Positions 27,919 to 60,058 of a stretch of 64,000 bases of DNA are shown piece by piece. Source of the DNA: Chrysomallon squamiferum (taxonomy: Eukaryota; Animalia; Mollusca); the NCBI GenBank assembly GCA_012295275.1, contig CM022665.1, positions 17,732,001-17,796,000 of the forward strand, written 5' to 3'. The notes beneath the pieces are model-generated. The model saw nothing but the letters and a program-made list of their open reading frames with translations. It did not search any database and had not been told where the DNA came from. Numbering within the stretch: the first letter of the stretch is position 1; each line of letters begins with the position of its first letter. The position numbers and the translations under genes are program-made.

Positions 27919-28093
27919 ATTAATGATGAAAATGTTGTACGTGCATCTCACGAACGAGTTGTACAACTTATACGATCATCACGAGACCGTCTGAAGATGA
28001 AAGTTGTCACTGTCCGACCCACGGAGAAAGAAAATGATTGGTTTATTCATCAAGATGGGGCAATGACCCTCCCCAACAGAATCAAAAGATCAG
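27919..28093 (+). CDS. SHANK: Shank exon, end of PDZ (INDENVVRASHERVVQLIRSSRDRLKMKVVTV...NRIKRS)
   Basis: Phase 0 in, phase 1 out (donor GTAAAA at 28094). H-x-x-VV-x-LIR alphaB helix of a class I PDZ domain. Confidence 0.93.
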
Positions 28094-28435
28094 GTAAAAA
28101 AAAAAAAAAATTAGTATATAATGAAATTAATTTATTCTCTGAAAAATTAGAAATAATATAAAATAAAATAAATCAGAAAAATTTAAAAAGAAATTTAATT
28201 GCAAATATATTAACAACAACAATAATTATAATTATAATAATACCAATAACAACAATAATAAAAAAGCAATAAGCACAAAAACCTAAAGATAAAAAAAAAA
28301 AAAAAAAAAAAAAAAGTGTCCACAAAGGTAATATGGAGGAATTTAAATAGACAGAAACTGAGCTAGTTAAACAAATAGTTAAGACTGAGTCTGCTGTTGA
28401 CTTGTTTTCTAACATGTTTTTGTCTGTGTTTGTAG

Positions 28436-28525
28436 CTCCCACCCCACCAAAGAGAGATCCACAGACTTCCCTCTCATACAGTAAAGGAACATCACGATCA
28501 ATGGCAGAAGGAATGGAGGAAATTG
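28436..28525 (+). CDS. SHANK: Shank post-PDZ exon (APTPPKRDPQTSLSYSKGTSRSMAEGMEEI)
   Basis: Acceptor gtttgtag, donor GTAAGT, 90 nt, phase 1-1. Resembles the APPPPKR..T.L...S.SM..ELEEL segment that follows the PDZ in vertebrate Shanks. Confidence 0.9.
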
Positions 28526-28848
28526 GTAAGTTGATTTTATTACTTTTATTGTCAGTATTTGTATTTACTCATTAATGTGCATGTTTATTTATTTTATGTT
28601 TAAATTAATTAATTATTCATTTATTTATTAAAGACTTTTTAAAATAAAAATTTAATTAATTTATGTGTTTGTTCATTTCTGTCTTTCTTTGTTTTGTTTT
28701 ATTTGCTTGTTCATTTATTTATTTATTTACTATTATCATTGCCAATGCTTTTGTTTTGTTTTGTTTATTTATTTATTATTATTATTATTATTTTTTTAAA
28801 TTAAATATTTCATTAAAAAATTAATTTTACTCTCTCCTTTAATTTCAG

Positions 28849-31800: not shown

Positions 31801-32147
31801 ACCCTAACTATGAGAATAATCAAAATACTGGATTTATCCCTCCACCTCTAGAATTTGGGAGTGGCTCACAAGATACTTCAAACAAAGGCAAACCTGTCAG
31901 GCCCTTCCAGACTAAACCAGTGGATTCCTGGCTCTGCACTGATGTCATGGATTGGCTGGACAGTCTGAACATGTCACAGTACAAGTCCAGTTTTGCAAAG
32001 AACTGTATTGATGGTCCCAAGCTGCAGGGTCTTGGCAGAAATGATTACATTGAACTTGGTGTAGTACAGGTAGGACACAGAATGAACCTTGAAAGATCCA
32101 TCAAAAAAGTGGCCATGGGAAAATTTACTGAAAGTTTACGACTGTGA
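28849..32147 (+). CDS. SHANK: Shank last coding exon: low-complexity/Pro-rich region, PPxxF motifs, C-terminal SAM domain
   Basis: Acceptor aatttcag at 28848, then about 1100 open codons with a poly-Pro tract near 30370-30465. Ends in SAM (PFQTKPVDSWLCTDVMDWLDSLNMSQYKSSFAKNCIDGPKL...ELGVVQVGHRMNLERSIK). TGA at 32145-32147. Confidence 0.96.
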
Positions 32148-35473: not shown

Positions 35474-35547
35474 GATTTTGCATCATAAATTAGTTTAAGA
35501 TGTTTTTAGTTTGTGTTTTTTTTTTTTTTAAAGGTAAAAGAAAATAA

Positions 35548-37640
35548 ACAAACTTACAGATACCTTTAAAAAAAATCAAACAGTCTGTTTTAGATTTGCG
35601 TTCAAGTAAATCTTACAGTCATAAAAATTTGCATAAATTAAAATGATTCAATTATGAACATGTACATATCCTTTGAATTTTGAAATTTTTTATTTCAGTG
35701 TTGAGAAAATCTCTGAGAGTGTGATTTACAATAAATCATATTAATTTAATCATTATATTTGTTCTCAAAGGATACGTATATATAATATACATGGAGGTCA
35801 AGGACATATCTGAAGGTAGTAGGAAATGGAAATTAACTGTATAACCTTGACCTTGATATTTATTTTCCTATCTGTATTTACTACTAGACAATTAACACTC
35901 GATTATAATTTTTTTTTTTTTTTTTTTTTTTAGAGTTTGAGCATTAGACTTCTTAGATAATTTGAGTGACCCGACAGATTGAGCATTTATGTTTTGTTAT
36001 TTTTTTTTTTAATATTATATTTTAATTCTTTAACCTCTTTATTTGCATTGAGGTGCCATTAAATTTCAAAGTTAAATCATAAAATAAAAACATATGTTTA
36101 ATAATTTGTTTTTGACATTTGTAATATACATATTAAGCTGCTTTTTAAATTGATTTATTTACTGATATTTATGGAATGTTTGTATATAAAAAAGGTGAAT
36201 AAAATCTTTTAAACTTTATTGAAGAACATCAAAATCAAACTGTTAATGGAAAGTATATGGAATATGTAATGAGAAAATTACACACAAAAAACATATTTTT
36301 ATAATAAAATAATATTGAGTTAATTAAACAAAAATTTAAAATAGTGTGATTTAAATTTCAGTTTCTGTAAGGAACAGCCTTGGCTTCAAATTATTTTATT
36401 TTTTCATTTATTTATTTTTTTATGTTTATTTTTACACAAAGAACAACGACATTTTCAACCTGATTAATTCAGTTCGCAGAATGTTATTAAAATACAGAAA
36501 GTAAGATTCTGTATACAGAACTGTAAAACTTGTATTTTCTGTTTGGGATCAACAATGCTTGAATACAATGATTTTCAGATTAATTATTCACATATCAGTG
36601 CTTTCTGTTACAATTCAATCAATCTGCCATTGTTATTATTCTGTGATAAATCCCTCCACAGGAAAAAAATCAATGAGATTGAATGCCATTCTTGTAGTCA
36701 GCTTATCTTAGGTTTGGAGATAAAACACACACACACACACACACCTTCAAACACTTTCATATATACAAAAAGATATGTGTGTCGTAGATAAAACTATTAT
36801 AATATTTCAAGTATTAACCATTTTAGACATATTTAGATAATGAAGTACATACATTTCTGGTTATACACATTTGTAAAATGCAAACAATGCTGGTAGTTAC
36901 AAAATTGTAAATAGCTATGATTTATTTGATATTGAGCTAAAGAGTAAACTAGTCAAATTTATTATACCACTAATCAAATTGTACTATTTTTCTTTTTACT
37001 TTTAGAAAGTTTGTTTTGAATTAGCATTAAAAATATAAATTGAATACATTTTCTTTTATGAAAATTAATTTTTCTTTTATATCAGTTTATCAGTTTTATA
37101 ATATACATTTCAGGAAATCTAAAAATGTTCTAAAATTCGTCATCATCGTTTGTTGAACTGTAGACTTAATCAAAATTATAATGTCCTGTTTTATTTGCTT
37201 TTCAATTTTATTTAACAATAAATAAATAAAATAACGAACTAACTCAATAAAAATAAAGTAAAATAAAGCAAAACAAACTCACAGATACCTTTAAAATAAT
37301 TTGGATAGTCTGTTTTAGATTTGCGTTCAAGTAAATCTTACAGTCATAAAAATTTGCATAAATTAAAATAATTCAATTATTAACATATACGTATCCTTTG
37401 AATGTTGAAATATTTATTTCAGGGTTGAGAAAATCTCTGAGAGTGTGGTTTACAATAAATCATATTAATTCAATCATTATATTTGTTCTCAAAGGATACG
37501 TATACGTGGAGGTCAAGGACATATCTGAAGGTTGTTAGGAAATGGAAATTAACTGTATGACCTTGACCTTGACATTTATTTTCATATCTGTATTTACTAC
37601 AATTATTTATACTAGACAATTAACACTAGATTATTATTAA
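35548..37640. repeat. About 360-bp direct repeat (35548-35910 and 37272-37640)
   Basis: Long shared blocks, e.g. gtctgttttagatttgcgttcaagtaaatcttacagtcataaaaatttgcataaattaaaa and ggaggtcaaggacatatctgaagg. Confidence 0.92.
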
Positions 37641-38683
37641 TTTTTTTGTATTAATACGCTGTAAACAAAAATACTTCCAGTAATGGCTGTTTAACACTGT
37701 ATGTAAAAATATATATTTATGTAATCTTTTGTGTCATGTTGGATTATTTTCTTACAGAGATGGTAATATTTGTGGAAGTGATCAAGTTTGAAAATAAATT
37801 CTTCCATTATGAAATATTTTGTTTGTGTTTTTGTAGAAACATAAAAAGACAATTGCCTCCAGAAAACAATTTTAAAATAAAACAACTAATAATAAAAATA
37901 AAATAAACTAAACTCTTCTGAAAAACTGCGTTTTTTTCCACATTTAAGAATTAGCAAAGAGATATTTGCATGTTATAGACACTGATACTTATCACAATAT
38001 ATAAAACACTTAAGTGCTAATATATAAACACACCCAAAAATTGTATTTTATTGTCTAATTAGCAGTTAGCTACAAACTATCATTCTTTGGCATTTCCCAA
38101 CAGAGAACCATACATACCACTTCATTTGTTATATGTGTCTAAGTACAACTGAACCCGATCAGTACATCAAAGAGGACTGAACCTCTATCTCATTATTTCC
38201 CAGAGCATTTCACTAGTGCTGTCCTCTTGACTTTATTTAATAATAATAATAATGATAATAATAATAAATACAGTATTCATCTTACTATGCTTCATAAACA
38301 CACACAAGTAACTGAAAAATCCTTTATCCAAAAGGCTTTGGACTCTAAATATTTTAGATATCAGAATGTTTTGAATTCTGGACTATAAGGAGATAGCCTG
38401 AAAATAGGATGTAGGTCTAAATACAAATTCTGTTTATATTTCATATACTTCTTACAGATTTTTCATATAGCATTTTTAGTAATAGTAATAATACAGGATA
38501 AAATAAAATAAAGGAATATGTATTTGTTTATTTGTTCATTTATTACCATTGTAATCTTTGTCATCATTGTTGTTGTTGTTGTTAGTGCTGCTGTTGTGAT
38601 TGTTATTAATATTTTCATTTAAAGTATATTAAATTAATAATGATAACAATAATAATAATGAATTAATATTGTACTAGTAGTAT

Positions 38684-38747: not shown

Positions 38748-39691
38748 TCTGGATTATTCTTCCTTTCGTTTTATTTCTCTCTTTCTTTTTCTGTTCAGCC
38801 TTTTCTTTCTCTAAACAGTAAAGCAGATACCAGCTCTTTTTTCAAAAGACATAATTGGGAGAGGATCTCATGAGCACAGGGATGGGGACTGTTAGGTAGG
38901 ACAAAAGGATAAATGAATGAATGAATGAATGGATGAAGGAATAAATAAATTCATGAGATAATGAATGAAAAACAAATGATAGTGACAAAAACAGAAAGAA
39001 ATTAAGAATCAATAATGAAAAGAATTCGATGTCTTGTTATAATAATAAAGAAATGTAAAATAGTTTTTGAAGTTATAATCTGGAATTTCTTTATCCACTT
39101 TTGAAATTGGTGACTTGAAATTTGTACAACAATAATAACAATTAAATTTTAAAAACCTTAAAACAGTTAAATATTAGTATTAACATTTCTGTATTAACAC
39201 TGAAATATTGATTCAAGCATAAACAAATAAAACAAAGAAATAAATATTTGTCCAGCAACACATACCAAATAGTTTTATCCAGATTTAAATTTCTAGTTAA
39301 ATGACAGTGGTTGTAACTGGCAACTTTTCTGTTAAAAATAAAAATAAAAATATTTTACAAATCAGTTGACAAAGATCTTAATTAGTTATATTTTTATGTC
39401 GCCCTCTGATTCATTTATTTTATAGATAACTCAAGAATCAGTTATATAAATAATCATTGACTTATTAGTATTATCTCTGATAAAAAGTAATTCATCAATC
39501 AGTTGTTTTTGTAATAAATAACAACAACAACAACAAATATTAATAACAACAAAAATAACAGGAGTAGTAATAGTAACAGTAATAACAACAACAACAACAA
39601 CAGTTAAAATAAAAGAAAAAGAAGAAGAAAACAATGTTATTCATATTTCCCTACTGATTTGGTTGTTTATGGTCACCCTTACTACACTAAG

Positions 39692-39898
39692 AATTCAAGT
39701 AATAAGTTGATAATTCCCACATATCTGTCCCGTATCCCATGTAACTGTTTTTATTTATTTATTTATTTTTTTTTTTTTTCGTAACTGCCCTTACCGTCCA
39801 GATTGAGTAGTTCTCTCAAATCCTGTACGTCTCTCTCGTTCATACCAGACTGTGTTAACTCGGATGAATCTAAAATTCTGTCAGTGTTCAAATCCACA
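39692..39898 (-). pseudogene. Relic of the EF-hand exon plus following intron of the secreted-peptide paralogue (DLNTDRILDSSELTQSGMNERDVQDLRELLNLDG)
   Basis: Near-identical reverse complement of about 48942-49160, including the donor GTAAGG and about 100 nt of intron. No counterpart of the last coding exon was seen. Confidence 0.9.
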
Positions 39899-40068
39899 CT
39901 ACGAATGAATGAAGGTAAGAAATATTTAGTGTAACAAGAGTGGGACCATGAATTGTGAAAGGGAGGAGTCATCATTATTACTGTTGTATAACCTCGAAAA
40001 TGAAATTTTAAAATTTATTTATTTATTTATTTTTTTCAACATTTTTTTTTTTCTATATTAATTATTAA

Positions 40069-40117
<49 letters not shown>

Positions 40118-40204
40118 AGTTCCCAATTATTTACAATATTTATTCATTTATTTACAATATTCATTCATTCATACATTAATTTATTGATTTATTGAAGATA
40201 GACA

Positions 40205-40315
40205 CTTAGGATAGTGAATGATAATAATTACGTGATGTCAACATTGAAAAATCCAGGCATAGCTGGTTGCCAGGGTCATCAACACCAACAGCAGCAGCAA
40301 AAGATCTTTATTCAT
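40205..40315 (-). pseudogene. Pseudogenised signal-peptide exon of the paralogue: MNKDLLLLLLVLMTLATSYA-WIFQC*HHVIIIIHYPK
   Basis: Acceptor ttttgcag directly before ATG AAT AAA, as in the intact gene at 48332. 20-aa signal peptide followed by Trp. Premature TGA at 40238-40240. Confidence 0.85.
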
Positions 40316-41001
40316 CTGCAAAATAGATAAATAAATTCTAATGATGATGATGGTGTCGACAATGATAAATAATTCATTTCATAAATACACCAGCACTACT
40401 ATTACTAGAACTACTACAACAACAACAATAACTACTATTTTTTAACATTACTAAAACAACAACAAAACAAAAATAAAAAATAAAACATATAAAAATACTA
40501 CTACTACTACTACTACTATTAATAATAATAACAATATCATCATCATCATCATCATTATTGTTATTGTTCTACCATCATTGGAGAAATGCTAAGGCAGATA
40601 CAACAAATAATAAATATAGTATACTACTACTACTAATAATAATAATAATAATTCCTCCCAAAAATGCAATAAATTTTTTAAAATGTTGCTGTCTGCTTTA
40701 CTGTTTATGAGAGGGTGATTTTAATAAATTCCTTATTGCTAAAAGATAGTTTTCTTCTGACAAAAGAAAATGTTGTGTAATTATTTCATTCATCACACAA
40801 ATACATCCACGTGTTTGATTCATAAGTCACCTAACAGTGAAAACATAACACAAGAAGTCACTTTTCAAAGATTTATATTTTTCAGGAAAATAAAATTGTA
40901 TAAATATTGTTTTGTATATGGCTGCTAATAAAAGTAACAATGAAAAAAAAATAATAATAATAGTAATAATAATTTAGCAAAAATAAAAATGTGATAAGAA
41001 A

Positions 41002-41072
41002 TTTCTATGCTGGGAATTGAACCCGGCCAACTAGGTGAAAGCCAAGGATCCAAACCACTAGAGCACATCAGA
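41002..41072 (-). pseudogene. tRNA-Glu(TTC) pseudogene
   Basis: Near full-length, multiply substituted copy of 42499-42570 with broken acceptor and D stems. Confidence 0.8.
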
Positions 41073-41355
41073 TGTTACAATTATGTGAATAAGACCAACC
41101 ACCACTTCTTCTGCAAACTGTAACTGCATATAGTGTTATCTACTTTATTCTTTAAAAAATCATTTTATATATAAATTTTTTTTTTCTTCAGATGTGCACA
41201 GGGTAAATTATCTGTATAATAAAATGAACAAAACAAAGTTTTAATAGGAATATTATGAAACTTACCTTGCGTAATGGTTATTGCATGTCATGTAAATCTC
41301 CAGACAGCATGAAACGTACAATGCACAACACAGATGTTTAATTAATTTGGTGTTT

Positions 41356-41395
<40 letters not shown>

Positions 41396-42498
41396 AAAAA
41401 AAAAAAACAAAAAAAAACCAGAAAATAATATGTAGAAACAAGAGTATGATGACACAAGATGGCATTTCTTAATTTATTAGGATAAAATGAAAAATAAACA
41501 CACACACACACACACACACACATTCACAATATAAATCTGTCTATCTGTCTAAATGTAGGATATAATTTAAAAATTCTTGGGCCTAAAACACATTTTTATG
41601 TATAATTTGTATCCAAAAGTGTGCACCATAACAAGAAAAAAACCCAAAATCAAATAAATTAGAAAGAGAAAAAAAGGAAAAAAGAAAAGACAAATATGAC
41701 GCATTAAATTTTTTTAATTCTTATTAAATTATTATTATTACTGTTGTTGTTGTTGTTGTTGTTGTTGTTCTTCTTCTTCTTCTTCTTACTGTTTTTAATG
41801 TTCTTAATGATGCTTTAAAATTATATTTTGGACATCTTCTGTGTGTTTAACCACTAAATTTTTAGTTACTACTACAATTGTTATTATGACTGTCAGTGTA
41901 AACTGTAAATAATTTCATTATATAAACACACATATACATACATGTGTGTGTGTGTGTGTGTGTAATAATAATACATACATATATCTATAATCATGTACAT
42001 ATGTAGATACATGTAAAATTTAAAAAAAAAAAAAAAATTAAAAGAAAATGCCAGATTTTCTCCACAAAAACTCTTATCTTTAACAAAATAAATACTATAA
42101 GAAATATGAGGAAAATATTATCACAGTAAATTTTTTGTCAGCTGTCTTGGTAACGTAAATCTTTGATAATCCAACACAAATAATTACTAATCCAAATTGC
42201 TTGTTTCATTTTAGATATGTTTATTTATATATTCCTGGGGGGAGGGGAATAATAATAATAAATAAAATAGTTGTACTTGTCGTTGTTGATGAGTGTGGTG
42301 ATGATGATACATTTAAAACTTAATATAGATCTTTAGTCATTTTACTAGCTAACAATGTTTGCTAATAATAAAGAATGACAATTAAAGACACTACCATTAT
42401 ATAAAACACTGAACAAAGATGTTTTTATTTTATAAGTGTAGTTTGAGATATATTGTAAAAAAAATTAAAACAACAATATTAATAAAAAGAAAAGTATA

Positions 42499-42570
42499 TT
42501 CCGATGCCGGGAATTGAACCCGGGCCACCTGGGTGAAAACCAGGGATCCTAACCACTAGACCACGTCGGA
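42499..42570 (-). tRNA. tRNA-Glu(TTC): tRNA-Glu, anticodon TTC
   Basis: Minus strand reads TCCGACGTGGTCTAGTGGTTAGGATCCCTGGTTTTCACCCAGGTGGCCCGGGTTCAATTCCCGGCATCGGAA (72 nt). Cloverleaf, A/B boxes and a downstream T-run terminator are present. One C-A mismatch in the acceptor stem, so it may be a young pseudogene. Confidence 0.88.
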
Positions 42571-43489
42571 TTTAACTCAAAATTGCAGGAAAAAATCATT
42601 CAGAGAGTGGGTAGTAACAGAGCACAGTAAACTGTTTTCAGCGAAATTTTATTCTGGTGCAGTCTGCTCACAATTGTCATTTTTAAGGTCTTATTCTGAA
42701 GTGAGATTGTTTCTCACAAAGATTATTTCATACGGTGTCAAAATATGTGCTGCAAACATGCAATTTATTTTATATTTTGTTTTACTTTGATAATTATGTA
42801 AAGCCCAAGTTGGTAAAATTATTAATTTGCCTGAAATTTTCAGAGATTTTATATAATTCCAAAAGGAATTAGATTTTATGCCTAACACCTGAATATGTGT
42901 ATATCTGTATCTTCGTGTGTATTTATGTATGTTCAGAGTTCGAAATAAGTAGCTAAATTGCTCAGTAACTTTAGGTACCGGCATCAAAAATTTGATCTTG
43001 AACAATAACTCTCAAAAGACTGAGTTCACCTGCAGGACACGATAGAGAACACCTCACCAACCTCTTCTGACAGAGCACTGTGCTTATAAAACTAAGTATT
43101 TTTCAGTTCTTATTTCTCATTGGAATTGTTAAGTTCTTGACTTATCCAGTTTCCTCATGCAGCCATTTTAAGTTAACAACATTCAACACGTGTCTATTTA
43201 TAGGTTCTCTTTATATTCATTTCTTTCAACTGTTTTATTTTATTTTTTTTCGTCTCAAGAAAAGCTTTTATTAAAAGATATGCAAGTATTCACCCGAATA
43301 AACTGAAATATAGGCCAAAAACAAATTAATGTTAAGGTCAAACAAAAACTGATTAAAACCAGCCAAACAGCGATCACAAATTACCTCCCTTGAAATAGCT
43401 AATATGAACTTCCTTGGACAAAATAAAAATAAAAATTATCATCTGGAACTGAGAACAACAACAACAACAAAATAATAATAATAAAACTA

Positions 43490-47165: not shown

Positions 47166-47228
47166 TATATATAGAACTGATATTAATGTAAACTGTTATA
47201 GAATCAGTACAGTGCACTATCGTACAAG
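47166..47228 (+). promoter_or_regulatory. Putative core promoter and non-coding exon 1 of the secreted-peptide gene
   Basis: TATATATAG at 47166, TCAGT initiator-like motif at 47204, consensus donor AAG|GTAAGT at 47229. The ATG at 48332 directly follows a splice acceptor, which implies an upstream UTR exon. Confidence 0.6.
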
Positions 47229-47467
47229 GTAAGTTTGTCTGTTTGTTCTTCCGTCCGTATGTATGTATGTACACTTGTATGCGTAATTTGAATATTATTT
47301 ATCCTTTCGTCTTCTTTCAAGACGTGGTTTAGGTGATAGTAGTAATAGTAGTTGTAGTAGAAGTAGTATTTGTAGTAGTAGTAGTAGTAGTAGTAGTAAT
47401 AGCTGGTATAGACATAATGGTTGAATATTGTATGCACGTACTGAATGATTTATCTGGCAAGCATGGA

Positions 47468-47490
47468 TTCCAATGTCGGGAATTGAACTC
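47468..47490 (-). pseudogene. tRNA-Glu 3' fragment
   Basis: ttccaatgtcgggaattgaactc matches the acceptor/T-arm end of 42499-42521. Confidence 0.5.
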
Positions 47491-47837
47491 ATCATAGTCC
47501 TTCTCGTCGTCGTCATCATCATCATCATCATTATTATTACTATTATCATGTTGTTGTTGCTGTTGGCGATAATAATATATTTCAATCTTAATGTGCAGCT
47601 TTGAGGACTGAAAAACGGGAGAAACATACTGTGAAAGATTCATTGCTATTGCTTTAACAACGACACTAGCTATCAATGTTTGTTAATAATAAAGTATGGC
47701 AATAAAATATACTATGATGAAATCTAACAATGAGTAAAGATTTTTAGAGATTGCGTGAATAGATTAGATATATCTTCAGAAAAACAACAACCAGAATTTT
47801 AATGACGTAATGATAAAAATATAAATAATTAAATTAA

Positions 47838-47909
47838 TTGCTATGCCGAGAATTGAACACGAGCCACCTGCGTGAAATTCAAGGATCCTAACCACAAAAC
47901 CACATCAGA
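47838..47909 (-). pseudogene. tRNA-Glu pseudogene in intron 1 of the peptide gene
   Basis: 72-nt colinear degenerate copy of 42499-42570; shares the flank gtttg(c/t)taataataaag. Confidence 0.8.
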
Positions 47910-48170
47910 TAAAACACAATACTTTTAACAGTACTGGTAGAACATTAATTCATATTACTTCATCGCAGTATTGTCATTATTATTCTTGTTACTGTAATGT
48001 TGTCGTTGTTCATGATGAAGATATATTTAAAGTTTAATGTGAATGATTCACTGTTATTTTTAATTTTGTTACTAGTTATAAGTGTTTGCTAATAATAAAG
48101 TACAATTTTAAAATAATTTTATACTATCAAGAAATAAAATAAAATTCAAAAATAAATAAAAATTACCTAA

Positions 48171-48226
48171 TTCCGATGTCAGGTGAAAGCGAAAGCCAAG
48201 TATCCGAACCACCTGACCACATCGGA
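48171..48226 (-). pseudogene. Internally deleted tRNA-Glu pseudogene
   Basis: ttccgatg...gaaagcc...accacatcgga retains both acceptor-stem halves but lacks the T arm. Confidence 0.7.
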
Positions 48227-48331
48227 TGGTGAATATAAAATGAAATAAAGTGAACTAGTGGATATATATATGCGTGTGTGTGTGTGTGTGTTGTTATCTG
48301 AAAAGTGACTTTATGGTTTTGATTTTCATAG

Positions 48332-48512
48332 ATGAATAAAGCAGGAATTTTGTTGCTGTTGGTGTTGGTGTCAATGACGGCGAGTGACGCATGGCTAATA
48401 CGCCGCGTCAAGCGGTTCATCAAGAGAACTCTGAATCCGTTTCGTTCCCGACGTCGAGTGATCATAGTTCCTCCTTACTATCATCCTTACTATTATTCCC
48501 CGGGGAAACGTG
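48332..48512 (+). CDS. Secreted cationic peptide precursor, coding exon 1: signal MNKAGILLLLVLVSMTASDA + WLIRRVKRFIKRTLNPFRSRRRVIIVPPYYHPYYYSP-GKR
   Basis: Acceptor ttttcatag|ATG, hydrophobic core with an S-D-A cleavage site, 10 K/R and no D/E in the 37-mer, G-K-R processing signal, donor G|GTAAGT (phase 1). Confidence 0.88.
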
Positions 48513-48927
48513 GTAAGTATTTCATTTGTTTATTTATTTATTTTATCTTTAAAAAAAAAAATATATATATATATAAAGAAGATTTTAAAACGAATCCCGA
48601 ACTTTTCAAAATTTATTGTACAATTGCAAGAATAAGTTAAACTGAAAAAATATTTCCAAATTTCTGGTTTTCGATAACGATAAAATACGAGGATAAAATA
48701 AGAAATGAAGGTTTCTTTATTGACGTCACTTTGTACATAGAACAGAGAATAAAACACGCCAATTTACCATATCTAACCCAATCTTTAAAATAAAATAAAA
48801 ATCTAAGAAAGGAAACAAAACAAAAAAAACAAAAATACAAGAAGAAAGGCAATTCCTTGCAACTATATACAATACATTCAGGTTATTTGTTAGTGCGCAT
48901 AATTATTTTAATATTTGTTTTGGACAG

Positions 48928-49041
48928 AGGTTTCAGAGATTGATTTGAACGAGGACGGAATTTTAGACTCATCCGAGTTAACACAGTCTGGTATGAACGA
49001 GAGAGACGTACAGGATTTGAGAGAACTTCTCAATCTGGACG
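48928..49041 (+). CDS. Peptide precursor coding exon 2: acidic EF-hand propiece EVSEIDLNEDGILDSSELTQSGMNERDVQDLRELLNLD
   Basis: Acceptor ggacag (in-frame alternative tttcag at 48936), donor GTAAGG, 114 nt, phase 1-1. DLNEDGILDSSE fits the 12-residue EF-hand loop D-x-N-x-D-G-x-L-D-x-x-E. Confidence 0.88.
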
Positions 49042-49494
49042 GTAAGGGCAGTTACGAAAAAAAAATAAAAAAAATAAATAAATAAATAAACAAATAAATA
49101 AAAACAGTTACATGGGATACGGGACGGATATGTGGGAATTATCCACTTATTACTTGAATTATTACATTTCACAAAGATAAATAACAATTTTATGTTGGTC
49201 ATAAATCTTACATAAATCTCATTTCTAGATCCGATCCTTTATATAATTAATTTAAAATATATTTTAGGAAATTAATGGCCTGCTAACACATTATTTTTAC
49301 ATGATTTATATCCCCACTTCTCAAAATGTTGGACCATCACTGATGTGTAATAATATGTACGTATTAGCTCTTGTATTTTTACAACACATAAACAATTATG
49401 CTGGTCTCCAAACATCTATACAGATTGCTAATCATTACTTTGAAGACTTCTATTATTTTAGGTAGTTTTAATTATGTGGTTTGTTTTGTTACAG

Positions 49495-49550
49495 GTAAAT
49501 CCGACATCAAGGTGAATGACGTGAAGAGAGCACTGGAGATGTTAGATTAA
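49495..49550 (+). CDS. Peptide precursor coding exon 3 (GKSDIKVNDVKRALEMLD*)
   Basis: Acceptor ttttgttacag, in frame, TAA at 49548-49550. The three exons sum to 351 nt = 116 aa + stop. Confidence 0.82.
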
Positions 49551-49799
49551 TAATCCAGTAAAAACTCTGAGGTACGTGCTGTCTGTTATCCAATAAAACA
49601 TATAAATACACTGTTATTAATATTAATATCACATAACCACTCTCAGTGGCTTTAGACTAATAAGTAACGGGATCAGTTATCAGAACAGGAACTCACAGAT
49701 AATCAGTGAGGAATATAAAACCACACCGTCTTCTCTGCAACTGATCTTCTAACATACTGGCAATGGTAGTTGATCCAGGTTCAACGACAACTACACGCT

Positions 49800-50190
49800 C
49801 TTCTCTTTTACTAATCCTTTAACAGTTTCACTAATTCTTATATGCTTTAACCTTTCTCTTTAGTCCCTAACTAATCCTTTAATACTGTTTTTTTTTTTTT
49901 TTTTTCGGGGGGGTTGTTGTTGTTTTTACTGATCCTTTGACATACTTTTTATTAATCAGTTAGCACTTTTTAACTAATTTTTTTAATATTCTTTAGTTAA
50001 TCGTTTAACAATATTAAAATAATCTTTTAACACTTTTTATTAACCCTGTAATACAGTTGAACTAATTCTTTTCACTAATCCTTTGTGACATTTTAATTAA
50101 TTCTCTAATAGTTTAACTAATCCGTTTACATTCATTCAATAATCCACTATCAAATTTTAAGTAATCATCTACCTCTTTAACTAACACATC
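49800..50190. repeat. About 21-bp minisatellite (ttactaatcctttaac) in the 3'-UTR intron of the peptide gene
   Basis: Visible periodicity. Confidence 0.7.
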
Positions 50191-50330
50191 TTAAATATTC
50201 ATATATATTTCGGTCGTCCACGAACAATAATTGTTTTGTATTTTCTTTCAGTCTTTTTTTCTTTTATTATTTATTATTTTTATTGCTGTTATTTCTTCTA
50301 ATATACAAATATTTAAAAAATTATTTTCAG

Positions 50331-50400
50331 GTTATTGTATTCACAAAAGACTTCAAAGAAGTAAATGAAGATGAAATAAATAAAAGTTATATAAAAAGTT
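50331..50400 (+). other. Probable terminal non-coding exon of the peptide gene with polyadenylation signal
   Basis: Donor GAG|GTACGT at 49572 (21 nt after the stop), acceptor ttattttcag at 50330, AATAAA at 50375. Confidence 0.55.
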
Positions 50401-50782
50401 CTCTGGTTTATATCTGTTTATTTTAGATATCTCCTCTCCCAATTACTAAGGTCTGATTTCAATTTTGTATGGTAATTCTAAACGCAGTTAACTTTAATAT
50501 TTTCAGTTATTTAATAGCCATTATTTAGTTTTAAGTGTGCGGCCATTTTCAAGATATGACCAATATTATGATGTAGAGGTTAGGATTAAAAAAAAAATAA
50601 AAAAAAAAAAAAAATCCCCCGAAACAAACAATCCTTTCTTTCGACTTATTTTATTATTTTATTTATTTTTTAATTTATTACTTAAGATAATTAAGAAAAC
50701 TAAAATATAATGAAATAAAAATTCTAGAATCCAATTATTTACAGGCTACAGTGTACAGTTGTTTAATTAATTTGGTGTTTTG

Positions 50783-50848
<66 letters not shown>

Positions 50849-51686
50849 AAGAACAAATTAAAAAAAATTAATAATAAATGGGTTTGAGAATAATATACAG
50901 AAACAACAGTATGATAACATAAGATGGAGTTTCTGAATTTGAATTTGATTTTGAATTTATTATTATAAAATGAACAACAGTCATATTACAAAGTTTATTT
51001 ATAGATATAAAAAATAATAGTCATTTAGTAAAGGATTAAAAAACTGTTGGTGAAGATCTAGAAATGTTTAGGTGGGGGTGTTTACCTATTTGAAAAAAAA
51101 AAAAAAATAATAATATATATACGAGAGACCATACTCTTTCACGATTTCCACCTGTACGTTTCAGTTTTCCTGTAATTGTTCAGTGAACTACATATATTAA
51201 TTAAATTAATTTTGCACATTTTACGGTATAAAATCTAGACTCATCAAGTGTCATCATATTTAATTAATGTCCGCGATATTAAGTTCCGGTTATGGCGGCC
51301 TGAGAACGGAAGTGAGAAAGTGTTATATATATGTGAAGAGATGCGTTATCGTTAGTGATTGTATCTCACTTATAACGTTATTCATTTCGCCAAACTATAA
51401 ATGAAAAGTACAAATAAGGCCACGTAAACAAACGTTTTGTTTGTCATAGATGTTGTCGATGAATTGTAAATAATTTAATTATCTATTTTAAAAAACGAAA
51501 CAAACAATGATAATTTTTTTTTATAATTTTTCTCCAAAAGGGTGCATCACTACAAAGAAAAAATAAATTAAAAATAATTTTTATTATCATCATCATCATC
51601 ATTATTATTGTTGTTATTACTTTGAAATTAGATTATGGACATGACATGATTTTTGATATCAATGCAAAGGAGAAAAAAACCCACAC

Positions 51687-51717
<31 letters not shown>

Positions 51718-52011
51718 TAAAAATAAAAATAAAAATAAAAATAAAAATAAAAATAAATAAATAAAATAAAATAAAAATAAAAGATCAAAATAATATAAAT
51801 CAATCAATCAATCAATAAATAGTTTAATATTATTTTCTCCAAGACGAAATTAAAATATCCAAGATTTGATTATGAGTTGAATCCATCGACAGTACCGGTA
51901 CCGGACCAATTAGAGTTTATTACACAAAAAAAAAATTCACGTCAAAAGATGATTTGATCCAAGCAGTCCAAATCAGTTTTTCAAGTTTACCATGTCTCCT
52001 ACTAATCTTTA

Positions 52012-52042
<31 letters not shown>

Positions 52043-52839
52043 TTTTTATTATTTATTTTAAATAAAGATTTAGTTCAAAATGATATTATAATAACACGGA
52101 AATGATTAATATTCTCTATTTTTTTGTGTGGAAATATATATTATATCTATTTCTTACGTGACAATAAACCAGTAAATGTTTAGTAATTTTTTGTAATTTT
52201 AAATTACAGTGAGTTTTTGATATTTTACTACTACTGTTACTACTGTTATTGATTTTGTTGTTACTATCATCACCATTACTACTACTACTTCTAGTACAGT
52301 AATTGTTCCAATCTGTTATTTATAAACTGTCAGTAATTTCATTGTGTATACACGTATGCATACAAAACTGAAAAAAAAAAAAAAAAAAAAGAAAAATGAA
52401 GAAGCAACATTTCTTTTCAAAAACGTGCACTTTTAACAAAATAAGACAATTTCGAAATAAATGTTTTAGTATGACATAATGCAATCACTGAGCATTAAAA
52501 CAAAACTAAATTATTGTTCATTCACAGATACCTGCACCAGTCACAGTCTTAACACTATATTTAAAACAAACAAAAAACAATACATTTTACAATAAACAGT
52601 AACAGTAGCGAGGAAAATAGTTACTTTACGTCAGTGACATTCTTTAATAATCCTGCCCTAATATATATTGGATAATTAACATCTATTGTCATCCGATAAA
52701 TACTGTGTTTACTTTTCAATTCAGTATTAACAGAAACACACAGACAAAATAATTACTAAATACAAAAAATACAACAAACAAACAAACAAACAAACAAATA
52801 TATGAATAAAAGCAAAATTAAAATATTAAAGTAAACATT

Positions 52840-53109
52840 AATCAAAATTCGATTTACTCAAATTCATTGCAAAAATGTTTATATTTTCCTGTTATTGTTA
52901 TTATTTATTTACTTATTCAGTTAGTTATTTAGTTTTGTTGTAATAGTTATTGTTGTTGTTGTTATTATTATTATTATTATTATTATGATTTCAAATCACT
53001 TTCATAATTTCTGCAAAATTTATATCAACTAGGATCATGGTAAAAAGTTTTCTCAGCTCCATCTTCACAATTTTATATTTCAAACTGTTGATCCCGTCTT
53101 GATGAAAAC
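52840..53109 (-). pseudogene. Truncated duplicate of the last two exons of the GalNAc-transferase gene (FHQDGINSLKYKIVKMELRKLFTMILVDINFAEIMK | ENINIFAM...)
   Basis: 53040-53109 is identical by eye to 55960-56029; the rest is diverged. The exon 5' end and acceptor are missing. Confidence 0.85.
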
Positions 53110-53280
53110 ACGTTTGATTCACATGTCACCGAACAGTCAAAATAAAAATTTAGTTAAAATATAATAAAATTATATAAATATTGTTTTGTTTATAGCCACT
53201 AATAAAAGTAATTTTATTGAAGAAAAAGAAGAAGAATGACTAAATAATAATATTAATGGACAGAAAGAAACAGAAACAAA

Positions 53281-53311
53281 TTCAGATGCTGGGAACTGAA
53301 CCCGGGCCACT
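53281..53311 (-). pseudogene. tRNA-Glu 3' fragment
   Basis: ttcagatgctgggaactgaacccgggccac matches 42499-42528; same local context as the 41002 copy. Confidence 0.65.
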
Positions 53312-53463: not shown

Positions 53464-53513
<50 letters not shown>

Positions 53514-53798
53514 AAAAAAAAAAAAAGAAAAAGAAATGGGTTTGGGAATAATATATAAAAACACAAGTATGGTGACATAAGATAGAATTTCTGAATTTGA
53601 ATTAGAATTTATTATTATAAAATGAAAATAAAATTTATAAAAAATATATACACATAAATCTATCTATCTATCTCTCTATCTCTATACCGTTTTAGGCAGG
53701 GGTTTATGAACATAGTTAAAATTTGAAATGAAATAGGGGATGAAGGGTTTGTAGAAATGAAAAGTTCAGAAAAAATAATTTGAATAAATGCGTAAGTA

Positions 53799-53857
<59 letters not shown>

Positions 53858-54307
53858 ATACTTAATGTAAGCAATATAAAGTTCCTCTTATGGCGTTTTG
53901 AAAACGGAAATGTGGAAATAATATGAATGTGTAAAGAGATAGAGTTATCGTTACTGAGTGCATCTCGCCGATAACAACGTTATACAGTTCACCAGTTTTA
54001 AACATAAAATACAAAGGCGACGTAAGCAAACGTTTTGTTTATCATCCCATCCGTGATTAATGTTGCCTAATGAATTGTAAATAATTTGATTATAATTTTT
54101 TTTTTTTTTTTTTAAATAAGAAACAAACAATTATAATTTTAAAAATGGAAGAAAACATAAAAAAGAAAGAAAGAAGAGACTAATACAGCGCATTAGAAAA
54201 ATATATTATTAAATTATTGTTGTTGTTACTTTAAAATTCGATTATGGATATGACTAAATCCCTTCCGATTTTTATATGAACACCCGGGGGGGGGGAAATA
54301 ATAATAA

Positions 54308-54346
<39 letters not shown>

Positions 54347-55451
54347 AATAAATAAATAGCATAAATTTATTTTCTTCGAGGCTACGAAAGAAAAAGATCA
54401 AAGCTTTCATCATCAGCTGAATCTATCAACAGTATGGCCAATGTAAATAACCGAAATGTGCTGTATTACACACAAAAAAAGTGGTTTTAAATGAACCAAT
54501 CCAATTCCGTCTTTCAAGTTTATCATGTTTACTGTGATTTATAATAATCTTTTTATTTGTTATTTTATTTTATTATTTTATTTATTTTTTTAAAATATTT
54601 TTTCCTCCTTAATTTACATTTAATAACACGGAAATTATTCTTTTTCTTTTTTTATTGCAGGTAAAAAAAATAAAAAAAAATAGAAAAGACTCCATGTTCT
54701 GTGCATATTTAGTAATTCCTTTTATTTTTAAATTAGAGTGTGTTGTTATTTTACTATTACAACTACTGCAAAAGTTTTTATAACTACTATTATCTCTATT
54801 GTTATTAGTTACTGTAATTATTATTGATATTATTTTATTGTCATTGTTATTATCATTATTATTGTTGTTGCTATTAATAACATTATCATCATTATTATCA
54901 TCATGAATATTGTTATTACTACTAAAACTACTGCTACTGCTACAGTAATTTTTCCAATCAGTTATTTATAAATTATCAATAATTAATTTTCATTATGTAT
55001 GTATGTAAAAGTAAAAAAATTAAAAATTAAAAAAAAGGTACACCTTTAACAAAATAAGACAAAGTCTAAACATTAGAAATAAATGTTTTGATCTGATATA
55101 TTATAATCACAGAGCATTAACTACACTTCATTATTATTCATTGAAAATTAGCACGCACACTGGTACTTACAACTGTTTTAAGCCTATTGCCAACCCCCTT
55201 AAAAAAATGTATTTACAACAAATATTAACAGTAATGAGGAAAATATATTTACAGCCATTTTGTCATTTGTAAACATACATATTTGATAATCCTGCCACAA
55301 TAATTACTTGATAATTAACATTTTCTGTGATCTGATAAATATTAAACTCAGGAAAAGGTTGACTTTTTTTCTGTATTGTAACACTAAGACACACAGACAT
55401 AAACAATTACTAAATCCAAATTACTTTATTGACAAGAATGTTTCTGCAGTT

Positions 55452-55481
55452 TCATCTTAGAGGTGTGGTATTTATATCTTC
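55452..55481 (-). CDS. bre-4: beta-1,4-GalNAc-transferase probable terminal exon (EDINTTPLR*)
   Basis: Strong acceptor tttttttcag, phase 0, AATAAA at 55425-55430 (minus). Without this splice the protein would end IMKVI* at 55911. Confidence 0.55.
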   Translation of the reverse strand, partial: EDINTTPLR

Positions 55482-55919
55482 CTGAAAAAAAAAAACATTA
55501 AAAAAAATTATAATAATAAAAAAGTAAATGATGATGATGATGATAATAATAATAATAACATTAAAATGCTTTATATTAAATTAAACATGAATCACAATTT
55601 AATTCATATAAATATATTTCTATGTTTGTATTATTATTATTATTATTTTTATTCTCACTTTTTTTTTATTAATATTCTTTTTTATCATTTTCATCATAAT
55701 TATCATCATCATCTTACTGTTCTGATCATTATTATCATCATTATATTATCATTCTCATCATATAATTATAATCATTAATTCATTAGCATTATCATTAATT
55801 ATCATCTTATTATCATTAAATTATTAATAGAAATATTAATAAATTATTATTATTATTATTATTAAACTATCATCATCATCATTATTATTATTACTATTAT
55901 TATCATTATTTCAAATTAC

Positions 55920-56058
55920 TTTCATAATATCAGCAGGATTTATATCAACTAGGATCCAAGTAAAAAGTTTTCTCAGCTCCATCTTCACAATTTTATATTT
56001 CAAACTGTTGATCCCGTCTTGATGAAAACGTTTTGGTGCTTCCTTTAGCAATTTAATT
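55920..56058 (-). CDS. bre-4: beta-1,4-GalNAc-transferase exon (IKLLKEAPKRFHQDGINSLKYKIVKMELRKLFTWILVDINPADIMK)
   Basis: Acceptor ttgcag; DGxNSLxY...LxTxIxVDI is the GT7 C-terminal motif. Confidence 0.92.
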
Positions 56059-58056: not shown

Positions 58057-58061
58057 CTTAC

Positions 58062-58249
58062 CTGTAATTATATTTGTCAATGGCAACAGACAGGTGTTGT
58101 GGGTCTGTGTTACAGATGTACAGGTTTCTGTCGTTTTCAGGAATGAGGTCAACATCATGGAAAATGAAACAGGAAAAGTTGTGATGTTTTACAGACTCAA
58201 CAAAACCAATGTTAAACAGCATTGCTCTGTTAAAAGGAACTTCAGGAAC
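58062..58249 (-). CDS. bre-4: beta-1,4-GalNAc-transferase exon with DxD motif (PFNRAMLFNIGF...CFIFHDVDLIPENDRNLY...HLSVAIDKYNY)
   Basis: FNRAxLxNxGF and FHDVDLxP GT7 motifs; 188 nt, phase 0-2. Confidence 0.96.
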
Positions 58250-58722
58250 CTAAAAAAGAAAAAAAATGTTTGGGGTGGTTTAAATATGAATATTTTTTCA
58301 GTTTCAGAACAGTCAATAATTTCATTTTACATGTATAAACTTTAATATGTTGTTGTTACTGTAGTTATTATTATTCTTATGATTATTATAGCTACTGTTA
58401 TTGTTTCTGTTATTGTTACTATTATTGTTGTTGCTGTAGTCACTTTTATTATCAGTTATTGTTCTTATAATTATTATTATTATTATAGTTATTATTATTA
58501 ATATTATTATTACTATTATTATAATTAAAATTATTAATATTTTTGTTATGATTATTATCAATATTAATTTGTTATTATTAGGTTATGGCTTATACTGGAC
58601 TATTTATGCAATTTATTTATATTACTTAAAAATAATTAGTTAGCAATGAGGAATTTTGAACCAATAATCCTGGGCACCTCTAATTTTTGTGGCTTATTCT
58701 AAACAAATACATGGATACTGAC

Positions 58723-58955
58723 CAATTCTATGACATAAATCCCATAATTCAATTGCTGTTTCTGCAAAAATGGATGAATGTTTCTTAGAAAAATCTTCAG
58801 ATGTGATCTTCTGTCTCGATATGCAACTACAACAGCAATGTGATGTTGTGATTCACAGGTAGATGGTGACCAATGTCCCCCAGGTTGCAGGTTTTGATTC
58901 ATATATTCTAACTGTTGAAAACTCAGAGCTTTCTTGTGTACCTTGATAGGGCCTT
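58723..58955 (-). CDS. bre-4: beta-1,4-GalNAc-transferase exon (GPIKV...PGGHWSPSTCESQHHIAVVVAYRDRRSHLKIFLRNIHPFLQKQQLNYGIYVIEL)
   Basis: GGxxxPxxC, YRDRxxHL and HPFLQxQQLxYxIYVIE GT7 motifs; phase 1-0. Confidence 0.96.
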
Positions 58956-59510
58956 CTGAAGAAACAACAAAACTCAAAGGAATAAGATTTTACTTAACTG
59001 CATGAAGTATTGAAAGAAGAAAATTTCATTTTTGAAAGAATATCCAAATGAATATATATACCTTGATAGGGCCTTTTGATGAAAGGCAAATCACAAGGCA
59101 ATATGCATTTACTCAAATTGATAAAGTGTTGAAAAAAGAAATGATTAAAAGAATATGTTAATGAATATTTGTTGTCCAAACACTAAATTGTTCTAATCCT
59201 TGATAAAGGAAGAAACTAATGTCGAAAACAGAAGTTAAGTTTACTAATCTAGAATGGAAAACAGATGTCAAGTTTATTTTTTATCACTTTATTTTTATAA
59301 TGATTTTTAATTTTATAATCACACACAGACATACCCACAAAAACATACACAGATATATAGACATACAAACACACACAGACACACAATAGTAATACTTGGC
59401 TTCATAAAGTAACTACTATAAAGAAAGAAAATATACAGTTAATAGCATGCTGTTATAACTGGAAAATAATTCAAGGCTGATCAAATGAAATCTGTGAAAA
59501 ATGTTTTTAC

Positions 59511-59769
59511 CTAAATGTGGTGGTATTGAAGGACAAGGTGGTTTAAGGTTCACATTTAGAGTTGTCTCCCTTCCATTATGGTGGTGCCCTAATGTTGGCC
59601 TTGACCAGTGCTGTGGTAAAACAGCCTGGATTATGACAGAAATACCAGCAGCAATGTTGTAGTGAATGATGAAGTTGAAAACAAATTCGAGAAGAACAAG
59701 TAGGGTTAACAGGAGACAACAAAACTTGAAATACTGGCCTGGTTTCAGGATAACAACAGTGGTTGCCAT
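59511..59769 (-). CDS. bre-4: beta-1,4-GalNAc-transferase first coding exon: cytosolic tail, type II TM helix, stem (CPSIPPHL)
   Basis: ATG in ccATGG context, hydrophobic FCCLLLTLLVLLEFVFNFII, conserved CPxxPPxL, donor GTAAAA. The exon probably starts at the acceptor at 59950. Confidence 0.92.
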
Positions 59770-60058
59770 GGTGATATACTAATATGGTATTACAAATTGA
59801 TGACGATGATTTGTCTTCAGTGAAATGAAGTCTTCATCTTAATGATGAGGTAGAATCAACTAGGTTTATCATTGAGGATGATGTTGAAAAATAAACATTA
59901 TTTGATCACCAGAATGCTTTGTTCATCTTCAAAGAAACAGATTTTCCTTCCTAGGAAGTAAAAATTAAAAATTAAAATATATTACACTGCAGAAATCAGT
60001 CTTCACTGGATTTAGAATTTTTATGTGTCTATGTTTCTTTGTGTGTATATGCCTGCAT

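What the first reader, a model, noticed from the sequence alone, without database searches (positions are those of the whole stretch)
47166..50400. Candidate new host-defence peptide precursor: amidated +10 linear peptide with a charge-matched (-10) EF-hand propiece
Seen: three spliced exons give 116 aa = 20-aa signal | WLIRRVKRFIKRTLNPFRSRRRVIIVPPYYHPYYYSP (37 aa, 10 K/R, no D/E, no Cys; amphipathic basic N-half, Pro/Tyr-rich C-half) | G-K-R | 56-aa tail. The tail has 16 D/E and 6 K/R (net -10), one canonical EF-hand loop (DLNEDGILDSSE) and a degenerate second loop (NLDGKSDIKVND). Known: G-K-R is a convertase cleavage plus PAM amidation signal; mussel myticalins are linear Pro/Arg peptides released at dibasic sites; mussel mytimycin carries a C-terminal EF-hand extension. 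Inference: a linear cationic peptide held neutral by an anionic EF-hand module, with Ca2+ binding on secretion possibly triggering release. I do not recognise this combination as a named family. Alternatives: furin cleavage at RSRR releasing VIIVPPYYHPYYYSP-amide as a signalling peptide, or a Tyr/DOPA matrix or mucus protein.
Basis: partly seen in the sequence, partly recalled or inferred. Interest (0 to 1): 0.85.

Follow-up and report, generated by a model that had tools for sequence, protein, structure and literature searches.

The report
Snail defence-peptide precursor with calcium-loop tail
A snail gene, shown here to be spliced and expressed, encodes a small predicted secreted protein in which a strongly positive 37-residue peptide would be cut from an acidic tail bearing a calcium-binding-type loop, so it is likely a new antibacterial peptide precursor that combines the layouts of two known mussel families, although its cutting, calcium binding and activity are untested.

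Summary
The gene is real. The host is a gastropod. No true homologue was found. The precursor and the 5' half of the gene follow the mussel myticalin layout (UTR-only exon 1, ATG at the start of exon 2, signal + cargo + KR in one exon, phase-1 intron); the EF-hand tail follows mytimycin; it is a member of neither. New here: a spliced but broken inverted paralogue 8 kb upstream, and six amino-acid-changing variants all inside the cationic core (weak statistics). Best reading: host-defence peptide precursor (0.55). Earlier scan notes report similar cargo + EF-hand layouts in an oyster and an acorn worm (unchecked). New variant of a known kind.

The parts
47166..47173 (+). TATA-like box upstream of exon 1 (predicted promoter element)
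   Evidence: sequence; start of transcription not mapped
47210..47228 (+). 3' end of exon 1, 5'-UTR only; GT donor at 47229; 5' end unknown
   Evidence: 15-17-nt loose ends of X1 and X2 RNA contigs equal this stretch; short overlap
48332..48391 (+). exon 2, first 20 codons: predicted signal peptide; ATG is the first base after the AG acceptor
   Evidence: hydrophobic scan; 12 of 21 residues shared with the paralogue including Ala20-Trp21; SignalP not available
48392..48502 (+). exon 2: 37-aa cationic core (pI 11.6; Arg 21.6%, Pro 13.5%, Tyr 13.5%); amphipathic N-half (hydrophobic moment up to 1.13), Pro/Tyr-rich C-half; internal RVKR (25-28) and RSRR (38-41)
   Evidence: six amino-acid-changing variants in public runs
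48503..48512 (+). Gly-Lys-Arg (predicted convertase cut and amidation signal) and phase-1 donor
   Evidence: unchanged in all haplotypes read
48928..49041 (+). exon 3: acidic tail part 1 with canonical EF-hand loop 1 (48942-48977, residues 66-77), two predicted helices, start of degenerate loop 2
   Evidence: EF-hand_5 E 0.0086, below curated cut-off; atlas 0.93 to EF-hand clusters; helices at model residues 15-20 and 25-37, pLDDT 69.7
49495..49571 (+). exon 4: rest of degenerate loop 2 (residues 96-107; Lys at positions 5 and 9), last helix-like stretch, stop at 49548-49550, start of 3'-UTR; GT donor at 49572
   Evidence: (X2, X3)
40232..40315 (-). broken paralogue, exon A: AG-ATG, related signal peptide, Trp at +1, then a stop codon after five core residues
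39688..39898 (-). broken paralogue, exon B (39898-39795): 94 of 100 nt identical to exon 3 over the shared part, 5' end lost, out of frame with exon A, EF loop altered; similarity runs on into intron 3 to 39688
   Evidence: one X1 RNA contig (depth 2.5) carries the exon A/B junction, X5 carries the unspliced form

Best explanation
This spliced, expressed snail gene likely encodes a host-defence prepropeptide: the predicted signal peptide would route it to secretion, a proprotein convertase would cut after Gly-Lys-Arg, and carboxypeptidase plus PAM would leave an amidated, strongly cationic peptide that likely kills or restrains bacteria at a body surface by permeabilising membranes. Shown: gene structure, splicing, composition, one canonical EF-hand loop, a broken paralogue, variation concentrated in the core. 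Inferred: the acidic tail masks the peptide's charge and aids folding or sorting inside the Ca2+-rich secretory pathway, its loop 1 is probably Ca2+-loaded there from the start, and the switch is the cut at KR rather than calcium. The amphipathic N-half (residues 21-37) is the likely lytic part and might be trimmed at the internal furin-type sites.
For: Tripartite precursor with pI 11.6 core, 21.6% Arg, 37 aa, G-K-R and anionic tail meets the myticalin description (pI >11, >10% Arg, 23-42 aa; subfamily A >10% each Arg, Pro, Tyr; PMC5577615 passages). Gene layout equals that of myticalins up to intron 2 (UTR-only exon 1, intron right before ATG, signal + mature + dibasic site in exon 2, phase-1 intron). 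EF-hand in an anionic extension after a dibasic site is described for the AMP mytimycin (PMC8004829). Hydrophobic moment 1.0-1.13 over residues 22-34. Six of seven variant sites in exons 2-3 fall in the core (binomial P 0.013), all six change the amino acid and none removes a K/R or the GKR. A spliced broken paralogue and further partial copies match the pseudogene-rich pattern reported for myticalins (PMC12294457). No relative found in large databases, as expected for a fast-evolving lineage-restricted effector and not for a conserved neuropeptide.
Against: No activity, tissue, induction or peptidomic data. Two furin-type sites and five dibasic pairs lie inside the core, so an intact 37-mer is not assured. 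The variant signal is weak: 6 of 10 over the whole CDS (P 0.063), six of six non-synonymous has P 0.15, tests are post hoc, and alleles cannot be told from paralogues in contigs. Only one intact copy lies in this window, not an array. The shared gene layout is simple and may be convergent (inference). The same signal-peptide-GKR-EF-hand layout occurs in allatotropin precursors (PMC9387463), and small secreted EF-hand proteins are known shell-matrix components in abalone and pearl oyster (PMC10741955, PMC3120837). EF-hand support is sub-threshold in Pfam (16 bits against 25.9). No exact NF-kB consensus site in the window (0 found, 0.47 expected), which is uninformative.
Confidence: 0.55

Rival explanations
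1. Matrix, cuticle or mucus protein: the basic, Tyr-rich part (whole or cut) would be cross-linked through tyrosine/DOPA into shell, periostracum, operculum or mucus, with the acidic EF-hand tail serving calcium handling or solubility.
For: Five Tyr in the last nine core residues. Secreted EF-hand proteins of about this size are described from mollusc mantle and shell (Hdh-SMP5, 134 aa, PMC10741955; PFMG1-like genes, PMC3120837). Basic Tyr-rich shell proteins such as KRMPs are known (recalled; name seen).
Against: SMP5 is acidic throughout with three EF-hands and no cationic cargo. A precise G-K-R at the exon end points to processing and amidation. No Gly-rich or repetitive framework region. 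In the vent-snail hard-part proteome tables the short Pfam EF-hand rows seen belong to other proteins, a weak negative because the species is not established, the file is cut and the tables carry no sequences.
Confidence: 0.2
2. Neuropeptide or hormone precursor: convertases would cut at RVKR, RSRR and GKR, releasing the 15-residue Pro/Tyr-rich amide as a receptor ligand, with an EF-hand tail like those of allatotropin and pleurin/HCS2 precursors.
For: Internal furin-type sites; G-K-R; an allatotropin precursor is annotated with the same EF-hand pattern IPR018247 (PMC9387463 table row) and carries a conserved C-terminal 'cryptic peptide' (PMC10987541 passages); a snail gene with neuropeptides plus EF-hand is in print (Bogdanov 1998, title only). 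An earlier scan note reads a similar acorn-worm layout as neuropeptide (e1-10616348, unchecked).
Against: The amide ends in -YYYSP, unlike -TARGF-amide (allatotropin) or PRX-amide (pleurin). Two of the six variants (V46L, P47H) lie within this 15-mer. The spacer region is +10 rather than acidic or neutral. No relative among annotated mollusc proteins, whereas mollusc neuropeptide families are broadly conserved (PMC6425005 passages).
Confidence: 0.15
3. Other secreted effector, for example an egg-coat, sperm or salivary cationic peptide, or an uncleaved auto-inhibited protein in which the basic helix docks on its own EF-hand lobe as a calmodulin target does.
For: Trp-led basic amphipathic helix resembles calmodulin-target helices (recalled); loop 1 lacks its entering helix (five residues after KR), which the core helix could supply; reproductive proteins also evolve fast (recalled).
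Against: No tissue data; GKR is intact in all haplotypes read, which favours cleavage.
Confidence: 0.1

Closest known systems
Myticalins / modiocalins (Mytilida; PMC5577615 passages, PMC12294457 passages and section 3.3 part 1)
   Same: Signal + linear Cys-free cationic core (pI >11, Arg-rich; Arg/Pro/Tyr each >10% as in subfamily A; 37 aa) + Gly-dibasic site + anionic extension; UTR-only exon 1, intron just before ATG, exon 2 holding signal, core and dibasic site, phase-1 second intron; pseudogene copies nearby.
   Different: Gastropod, not mytilid; tail is an EF-hand-type module split by a further phase-1 intron, not low-complexity; at least five exons instead of three; no PRX repeats; signal peptide does not fit the published consensus; no sequence match found.
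Mytimycins (Mytilida; PMC8004829 passages)
   Same: Cationic mature peptide, dibasic site, anionic C-terminal extension with an EF-hand; non-coding exon 1. The role of the EF-hand is stated there to be unknown.
   Different: Mytimycin cores are Cys-rich (12 Cys in the prototype) and about 54 aa; here no Cys, 37 aa, amidation signal; tail 56 aa against 75; homology of the tails not shown.
Allatotropin precursors and Helix HCS2/pleurin precursor (PMC9387463 table rows; PMC10987541, PMC8398477, PMC7749107 passages; Bogdanov 1998 title only)
   Same: Signal + amidated peptide released at a dibasic site + a tail with an EF-hand pattern.
   Different: Their peptides are short conserved receptor ligands (-TARGF-amide, PRX-amide); neither motif is present here, and the cargo is +10 and polymorphic.
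Secreted EF-hand shell proteins (Hdh-SMP5, PFMG1-like; PMC10741955, PMC3120837 passages)
   Same: Small, secreted, acidic EF-hand region, in molluscs including a vetigastropod.
   Different: SMP5 has three EF-hands and is acidic overall; no cationic cargo or amidation site is described in the passages read.

Membership tests
Myticalin | Tripartite precursor: signal, cationic Cys-free core, dibasic site, anionic extension | tested here: met
   against PMC5577615
Myticalin | Core 23-42 aa, pI >11, >10% Arg | tested here: met
   37 aa, pI 11.57, Arg 21.6%
Myticalin | UTR-only exon 1, intron just before ATG, exon 2 = signal + core + dibasic site, phase-1 intron 2 | tested here: met
   exon 1/2 junction rests on 15-17-nt overlaps
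Myticalin | Three exons and two introns | tested here: not met
   tail split by a third intron and a fourth donor at 49572
Myticalin | Conserved signal-peptide consensus and low-complexity extension | tested here: not met
   compared by eye with the consensus printed: only the Leu run is shared; tail carries an EF-hand pattern
Myticalin | PRX repeats (subfamily A) | tested here: not met
   no Pro-Arg pair in the core (criterion)
Myticalin | Restricted to Mytilida | tested here: not met
   neighbouring SHANK exon groups with Haliotis within gastropods
Myticalin | Detectable sequence homology to members | tested here: inconclusive
   no hit at E<=1 with exon 2 (37 candidates) or exon 3 (19 candidates); word-seeded, weak; no myticalin sequence was on hand for a direct alignment
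Myticalin | Antibacterial activity, gill expression | not testable with these tools
   no tissue labels, contigs only
Mytimycin | Cys-rich disulfide-bonded mature peptide | tested here: not met
   0 Cys
Mytimycin | Anionic extension with EF-hand after a dibasic site | tested here: met
   against PMC8004829; Pfam score is below the curated cut-off
Mytimycin | Homology of the EF-hand extension | tested here: inconclusive
   20 hits at E<=0.001 among 1.84 billion representatives are all 169-3722 aa with 4-14 matched stretches; 9 of 20 were read and are multi-repeat proteins
Allatotropin precursor | Mature peptide ending -TARGF-amide or like motif before GKR | tested here: not met
   core ends -YYYSP against the peptide printed (one insect example; mollusc forms not seen)
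Allatotropin precursor | EF-hand pattern in the C-terminal region | tested here: met
   homology to the 'cryptic peptide' not tested
Pleurin / HCS2 precursor | One or more PRX-amide peptides | tested here: not met
   none in the frame (criterion)
SMP5-type shell EF-hand protein | Three EF-hands directly after the signal, acidic overall | tested here: not met
   one canonical loop, after a +10 core
EF-hand superfamily | Helix-loop-helix fold and Ca2+ binding | tested here: inconclusive
   canonical 12-residue loop 1; exit helix predicted, entering helix missing; only the exon-3 part could be modelled (pLDDT 69.7); binding not testable

The most novel reading that the evidence does not exclude
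The gene is one instance of an old, unrecognised secretion cassette (UTR exon / signal + swappable cargo + KR exon / phase-1 EF-hand exons) from which mussel mytimycins, myticalins (tail decayed to low complexity) and this gastropod peptide all derive, perhaps borrowed from EF-hand-tailed neuropeptide precursors; the Ca2+-loaded tail grips the cargo's basic helix as a built-in calmodulin-like safety catch, and in a symbiont-bearing vent snail the released peptide polices bacteria on or in the animal.
Probability: 0.15. Interest if true: 0.8.

Novelty: new variant of a known kind. Interest (0 to 1): 0.5.

Why it matters
Cys-free molluscan AMPs are few (abstract of PMC12294457) and myticalins are described as restricted to Mytilida (PMC5577615); the gastropod AMP section of a 2025 review (PMC11767717, passages) lists no such precursor. 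A gastropod gene with the myticalin layout and the mytimycin-type EF-hand tail offers a short, Cys-free, easily synthesised test case for the stated open question of what the EF-hand extension of AMP precursors does, and a search handle (signal + KR + EF exons) for hidden peptide families. If the peptide is inactive it is an orphan secreted protein of modest interest.

Tried and rejected
No whole genome is held, so paralogues outside the window could not be counted. Homologue searches with exon 2 (proteins 106-2000 aa) and exon 3 (71-2000 aa) found nothing at E<=1; the spliced 116-aa protein itself could not be used as a query in the remote tools, which lowers sensitivity. HMMER over 1.84 billion representatives gave only generic multi-EF proteins. 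Atlas: exon 2 best score 0.81, a lead only. Metagenome scan: 1 locus of 514 candidate stretches, L001, 32% identity, lying antisense to a bacterial ORF: rejected as chance. PDB sequence search: best E 0.22, EF-hand proteins. Fold searches with the 40-residue exon-3 model: no Foldseek match at E<=0.001, best VIA Z 3.1, uninformative. Core-tail complex prediction with Ca: 'no answer' (score 0.16, mark 0.34), neither for nor against binding. The fold job for the core never finished. Pfam on the core and the paralogue pieces: 0 families; LST1 hit on exon 2 (E 0.084) rejected as a hydrophobic-stretch match. Motif search of the scleritome paper's supplements found nothing, but the tables seen carry identifiers, not sequences; 30 of 120 EF-hand rows and all PF13202/PF00036/PF13405 rows were seen, the one similar-looking row is calumenin; one supplement was too large, one unreadable and the main table cut. 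NF-kB consensus: 0 in the window. Considered and rejected: chance ORF (splicing shown), mytilid origin (tree), membership of allatotropin or pleurin (motifs absent). Depth of contigs was not used to rank expression.
Full report
Observation. Five public runs hold part of the stretch; all five were laid, four per call. Single RNA contigs run straight from exon 2 into exon 3 in X1, X2, X3 and X4 (4 of 4 RNA-type runs; three share one study, X4 is only guessed to be RNA) and from exon 3 into exon 4 in X2 and X3. X1 and X2 extend 15-17 nt upstream with the end of exon 1, a short overlap. X5, which covers the introns, shows none of these joints. These are contigs: they show splicing, not level or tissue.

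Host. The last exon of the neighbouring SHANK-like gene (SAM and PDZ) is closest to an unnamed protein (69%) and then to Haliotis (51%), Lottia (47%) and Mytilus (36%) among 94 hits. A quick tree of 21 rows (20 chosen from those hits; the careful search did not finish, and five rows filled under half the columns) places it with the unnamed row as sister to Haliotis (SH-aLRT 93) inside a gastropod group (94). So the animal is a gastropod. Earlier scan notes call it a vent snail; I did not establish the species.

Anatomy. The core has pI 11.6; Arg 21.6%, Pro 13.5%, Tyr 13.5%. Residues 22-34 have hydrophobic moments of 1.0-1.13 in 11-residue windows, the C-half under 0.45. It also holds two R-X-K/R-R sites, RVKR (25-28, followed by Phe) and RSRR (38-41), which the intact-37-mer model must survive. 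Loop 1 of the tail (66-77) has Asp, Asn, Asp, Gly, Leu, Asp, Glu at positions 1, 3, 5, 6, 8, 9, 12; the recalled PROSITE pattern occurs in 1025 of 200,000 shuffled tails and a stricter one in 11. Pfam gives EF-hand_5 at E 0.0086, below its cut-off; the atlas returns EF-hand clusters at 0.93; a single-sequence model of exon 3 shows the loop followed by two helices at pLDDT 69.7. Loop 2 (96-107) has Lys at positions 5 and 9 and probably does not bind calcium (inference). Only five residues separate KR from loop 1, so the entering helix is missing. The uncut pro-form is near neutral (+1.6), core +9.6, tail -10.3.

Locus dynamics. An inverted paralogue lies 8 kb upstream: a signal exon at 40315-40232 (12 of 21 residues identical, same Ala-Trp junction, stop after five core residues) and an exon-3 copy at 39898-39795 (94 of 100 nt identical over the shared part, out of frame). 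One low-depth X1 contig carries exactly this spliced junction while X5 carries the unspliced form, so it is a transcribed pseudogene; the contrast between an old signal exon and a young exon-3 copy suggests a chimeric or converted origin (inference). X5 depth of about 88 over intron 3 and exon 4, against about 40-50 on exon 2, and a variant exon 4 with other upstream sequence in X1 and X2 point to a further partial copy outside the window. Six variant sites in exon 2 (I23L, I30F, K31R, F37Y, V46L, P47H) all lie in the core and all change the residue; none removes a basic residue or GKR. Location: 6 of 7 sites in exons 2-3 (P 0.013), 6 of 10 in the whole CDS (P 0.063); six of six non-synonymous P 0.15; Poisson P 0.026 against 19 differences in 1902 non-coding nt from 7 of the 8 X5 contigs listed (the multi-copy one left out). 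These tests are post hoc, two differences in those contigs were not listed by the tool, and alleles cannot be told from paralogues: suggestive only.

Relatives. None found: exon 2 and exon 3 word-seeded searches, HMMER over 1.84 billion representatives (20 generic multi-EF hits, 9 read), metagenome scan (one chance locus), earlier scan notes by sequence. All used single exons of 40-60 aa, so the absence is weak.

Comparison with print. PMC5577615 (passages) describes myticalins: signal, cationic core of 23-42 aa with pI >11 and >10% Arg, frequent amidation, anionic extension; UTR-only exon 1, intron just before ATG, exon 2 with signal, core and dibasic site, phase-1 intron 2; gill expression; four of seven synthetic peptides with MIC <=2 uM against at least one strain, none active on Vibrio anguillarum in salt medium. 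This gene matches that layout to intron 2 but has more exons, another signal, no PRX repeats and another host class. PMC12294457 (passages and section 3.3 part 1) notes that myticalin cleavage and amidation are themselves not yet validated, and that pseudogenes are common. PMC8004829 (passages) describes the mytimycin anionic extension with an EF-hand of unknown role after a dibasic site, but a Cys-rich core. EF-hand-tailed precursors are also neuropeptides: an allatotropin is annotated IPR018247 (PMC9387463 table row), its conserved tail is discussed in PMC10987541 (passages), and Helix HCS2/pleurin is known from the title of Bogdanov 1998 and passages of PMC8398477 and PMC7749107; their peptide motifs are absent here. 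Secreted EF-hand shell proteins exist (PMC10741955, PMC3120837; passages). Also read in passages without bearing further: PMC11359391, PMC7653742, PMC3039611, PMC6425005, PMC11767717, PMC11871041 with supplement look-ups. Ten full-text searches listed no paper describing a Cys-free cationic peptide with an EF-hand extension or this gene; the library lacks most subscription journals, and only listings were seen for most hits.

Mechanism. Most likely (0.55) a host-defence prepropeptide: secretion, cut at KR, trimming and amidation, then membrane attack by the amphipathic basic half. The tail would mask charge and aid folding or sorting. Because the secretory lumen is already calcium-rich (recalled), loop 1 is probably loaded before release, and proteolysis rather than calcium is the likely switch; a low-affinity loop responding to seawater calcium is not excluded. 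The tail might also shield the internal furin-type sites (untested). Rivals: matrix or mucus protein (0.2), neuropeptide precursor (0.15), other secreted effector (0.1).

Verdict. A real orphan gene whose parts each have precedent; the combination in a gastropod was not found in the literature searched. Two earlier scan notes (oyster, acorn worm; unchecked) suggest that the cargo + EF-hand layout recurs, which lowers uniqueness but raises the case for a wider cassette. New variant of a known kind; interest 0.5.

Noticed in passing
window 39688-40315 (-): Transcribed, spliced pseudogene paralogue: old signal exon joined to a 94%-identical recent copy of exon 3 through a new acceptor; head-to-head with the intact gene.
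   Followed up: yes
window 49147-49640 and 50324-50421: Runs X1, X2 and X5 carry a variant copy of intron 3/exon 4 (N106T, V108M) at about double depth, an opposite-strand joint 49147/50324 present in DNA too, and RNA contigs in which this exon 4 follows unknown upstream sequence: at least one more rearranged copy not in the window.
   Followed up: partly
window 49571: X3 transcript continues from the exon-4 donor into sequence absent from the window; last exon may be missing from this assembly or differ between individuals.
   Followed up: partly
window 23238-32147 (+): SHANK-like gene: PDZ exons (about 23238-23465, 27859-28161) and a 1,100-codon last exon ending in a SAM domain.
   Followed up: partly
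window 58058-59833 (-): Exons of a glycosyltransferase family 7 (B4GALT-like) gene; further small exon-like ORFs at 52962-53109 and 55882-56029 are 93% identical to each other.
   Followed up: no
window 50804-53109 and 53467-56029: Old tandem duplication of about 2.7 kb (65% identity in most parts, 93% in one 148-nt piece).
   Followed up: no
window 35531-35919 and 37255-37647: Direct repeat of about 390 nt at 87% identity, downstream of the SHANK-like gene.
   Followed up: no
window 40982-41073, 42481-42580, 47840-47919, 48163-48230, 53280-53311: Short tRNA-like dispersed repeat (probable SINE), with very high depth in run X5 near 48010-48160.
   Followed up: no
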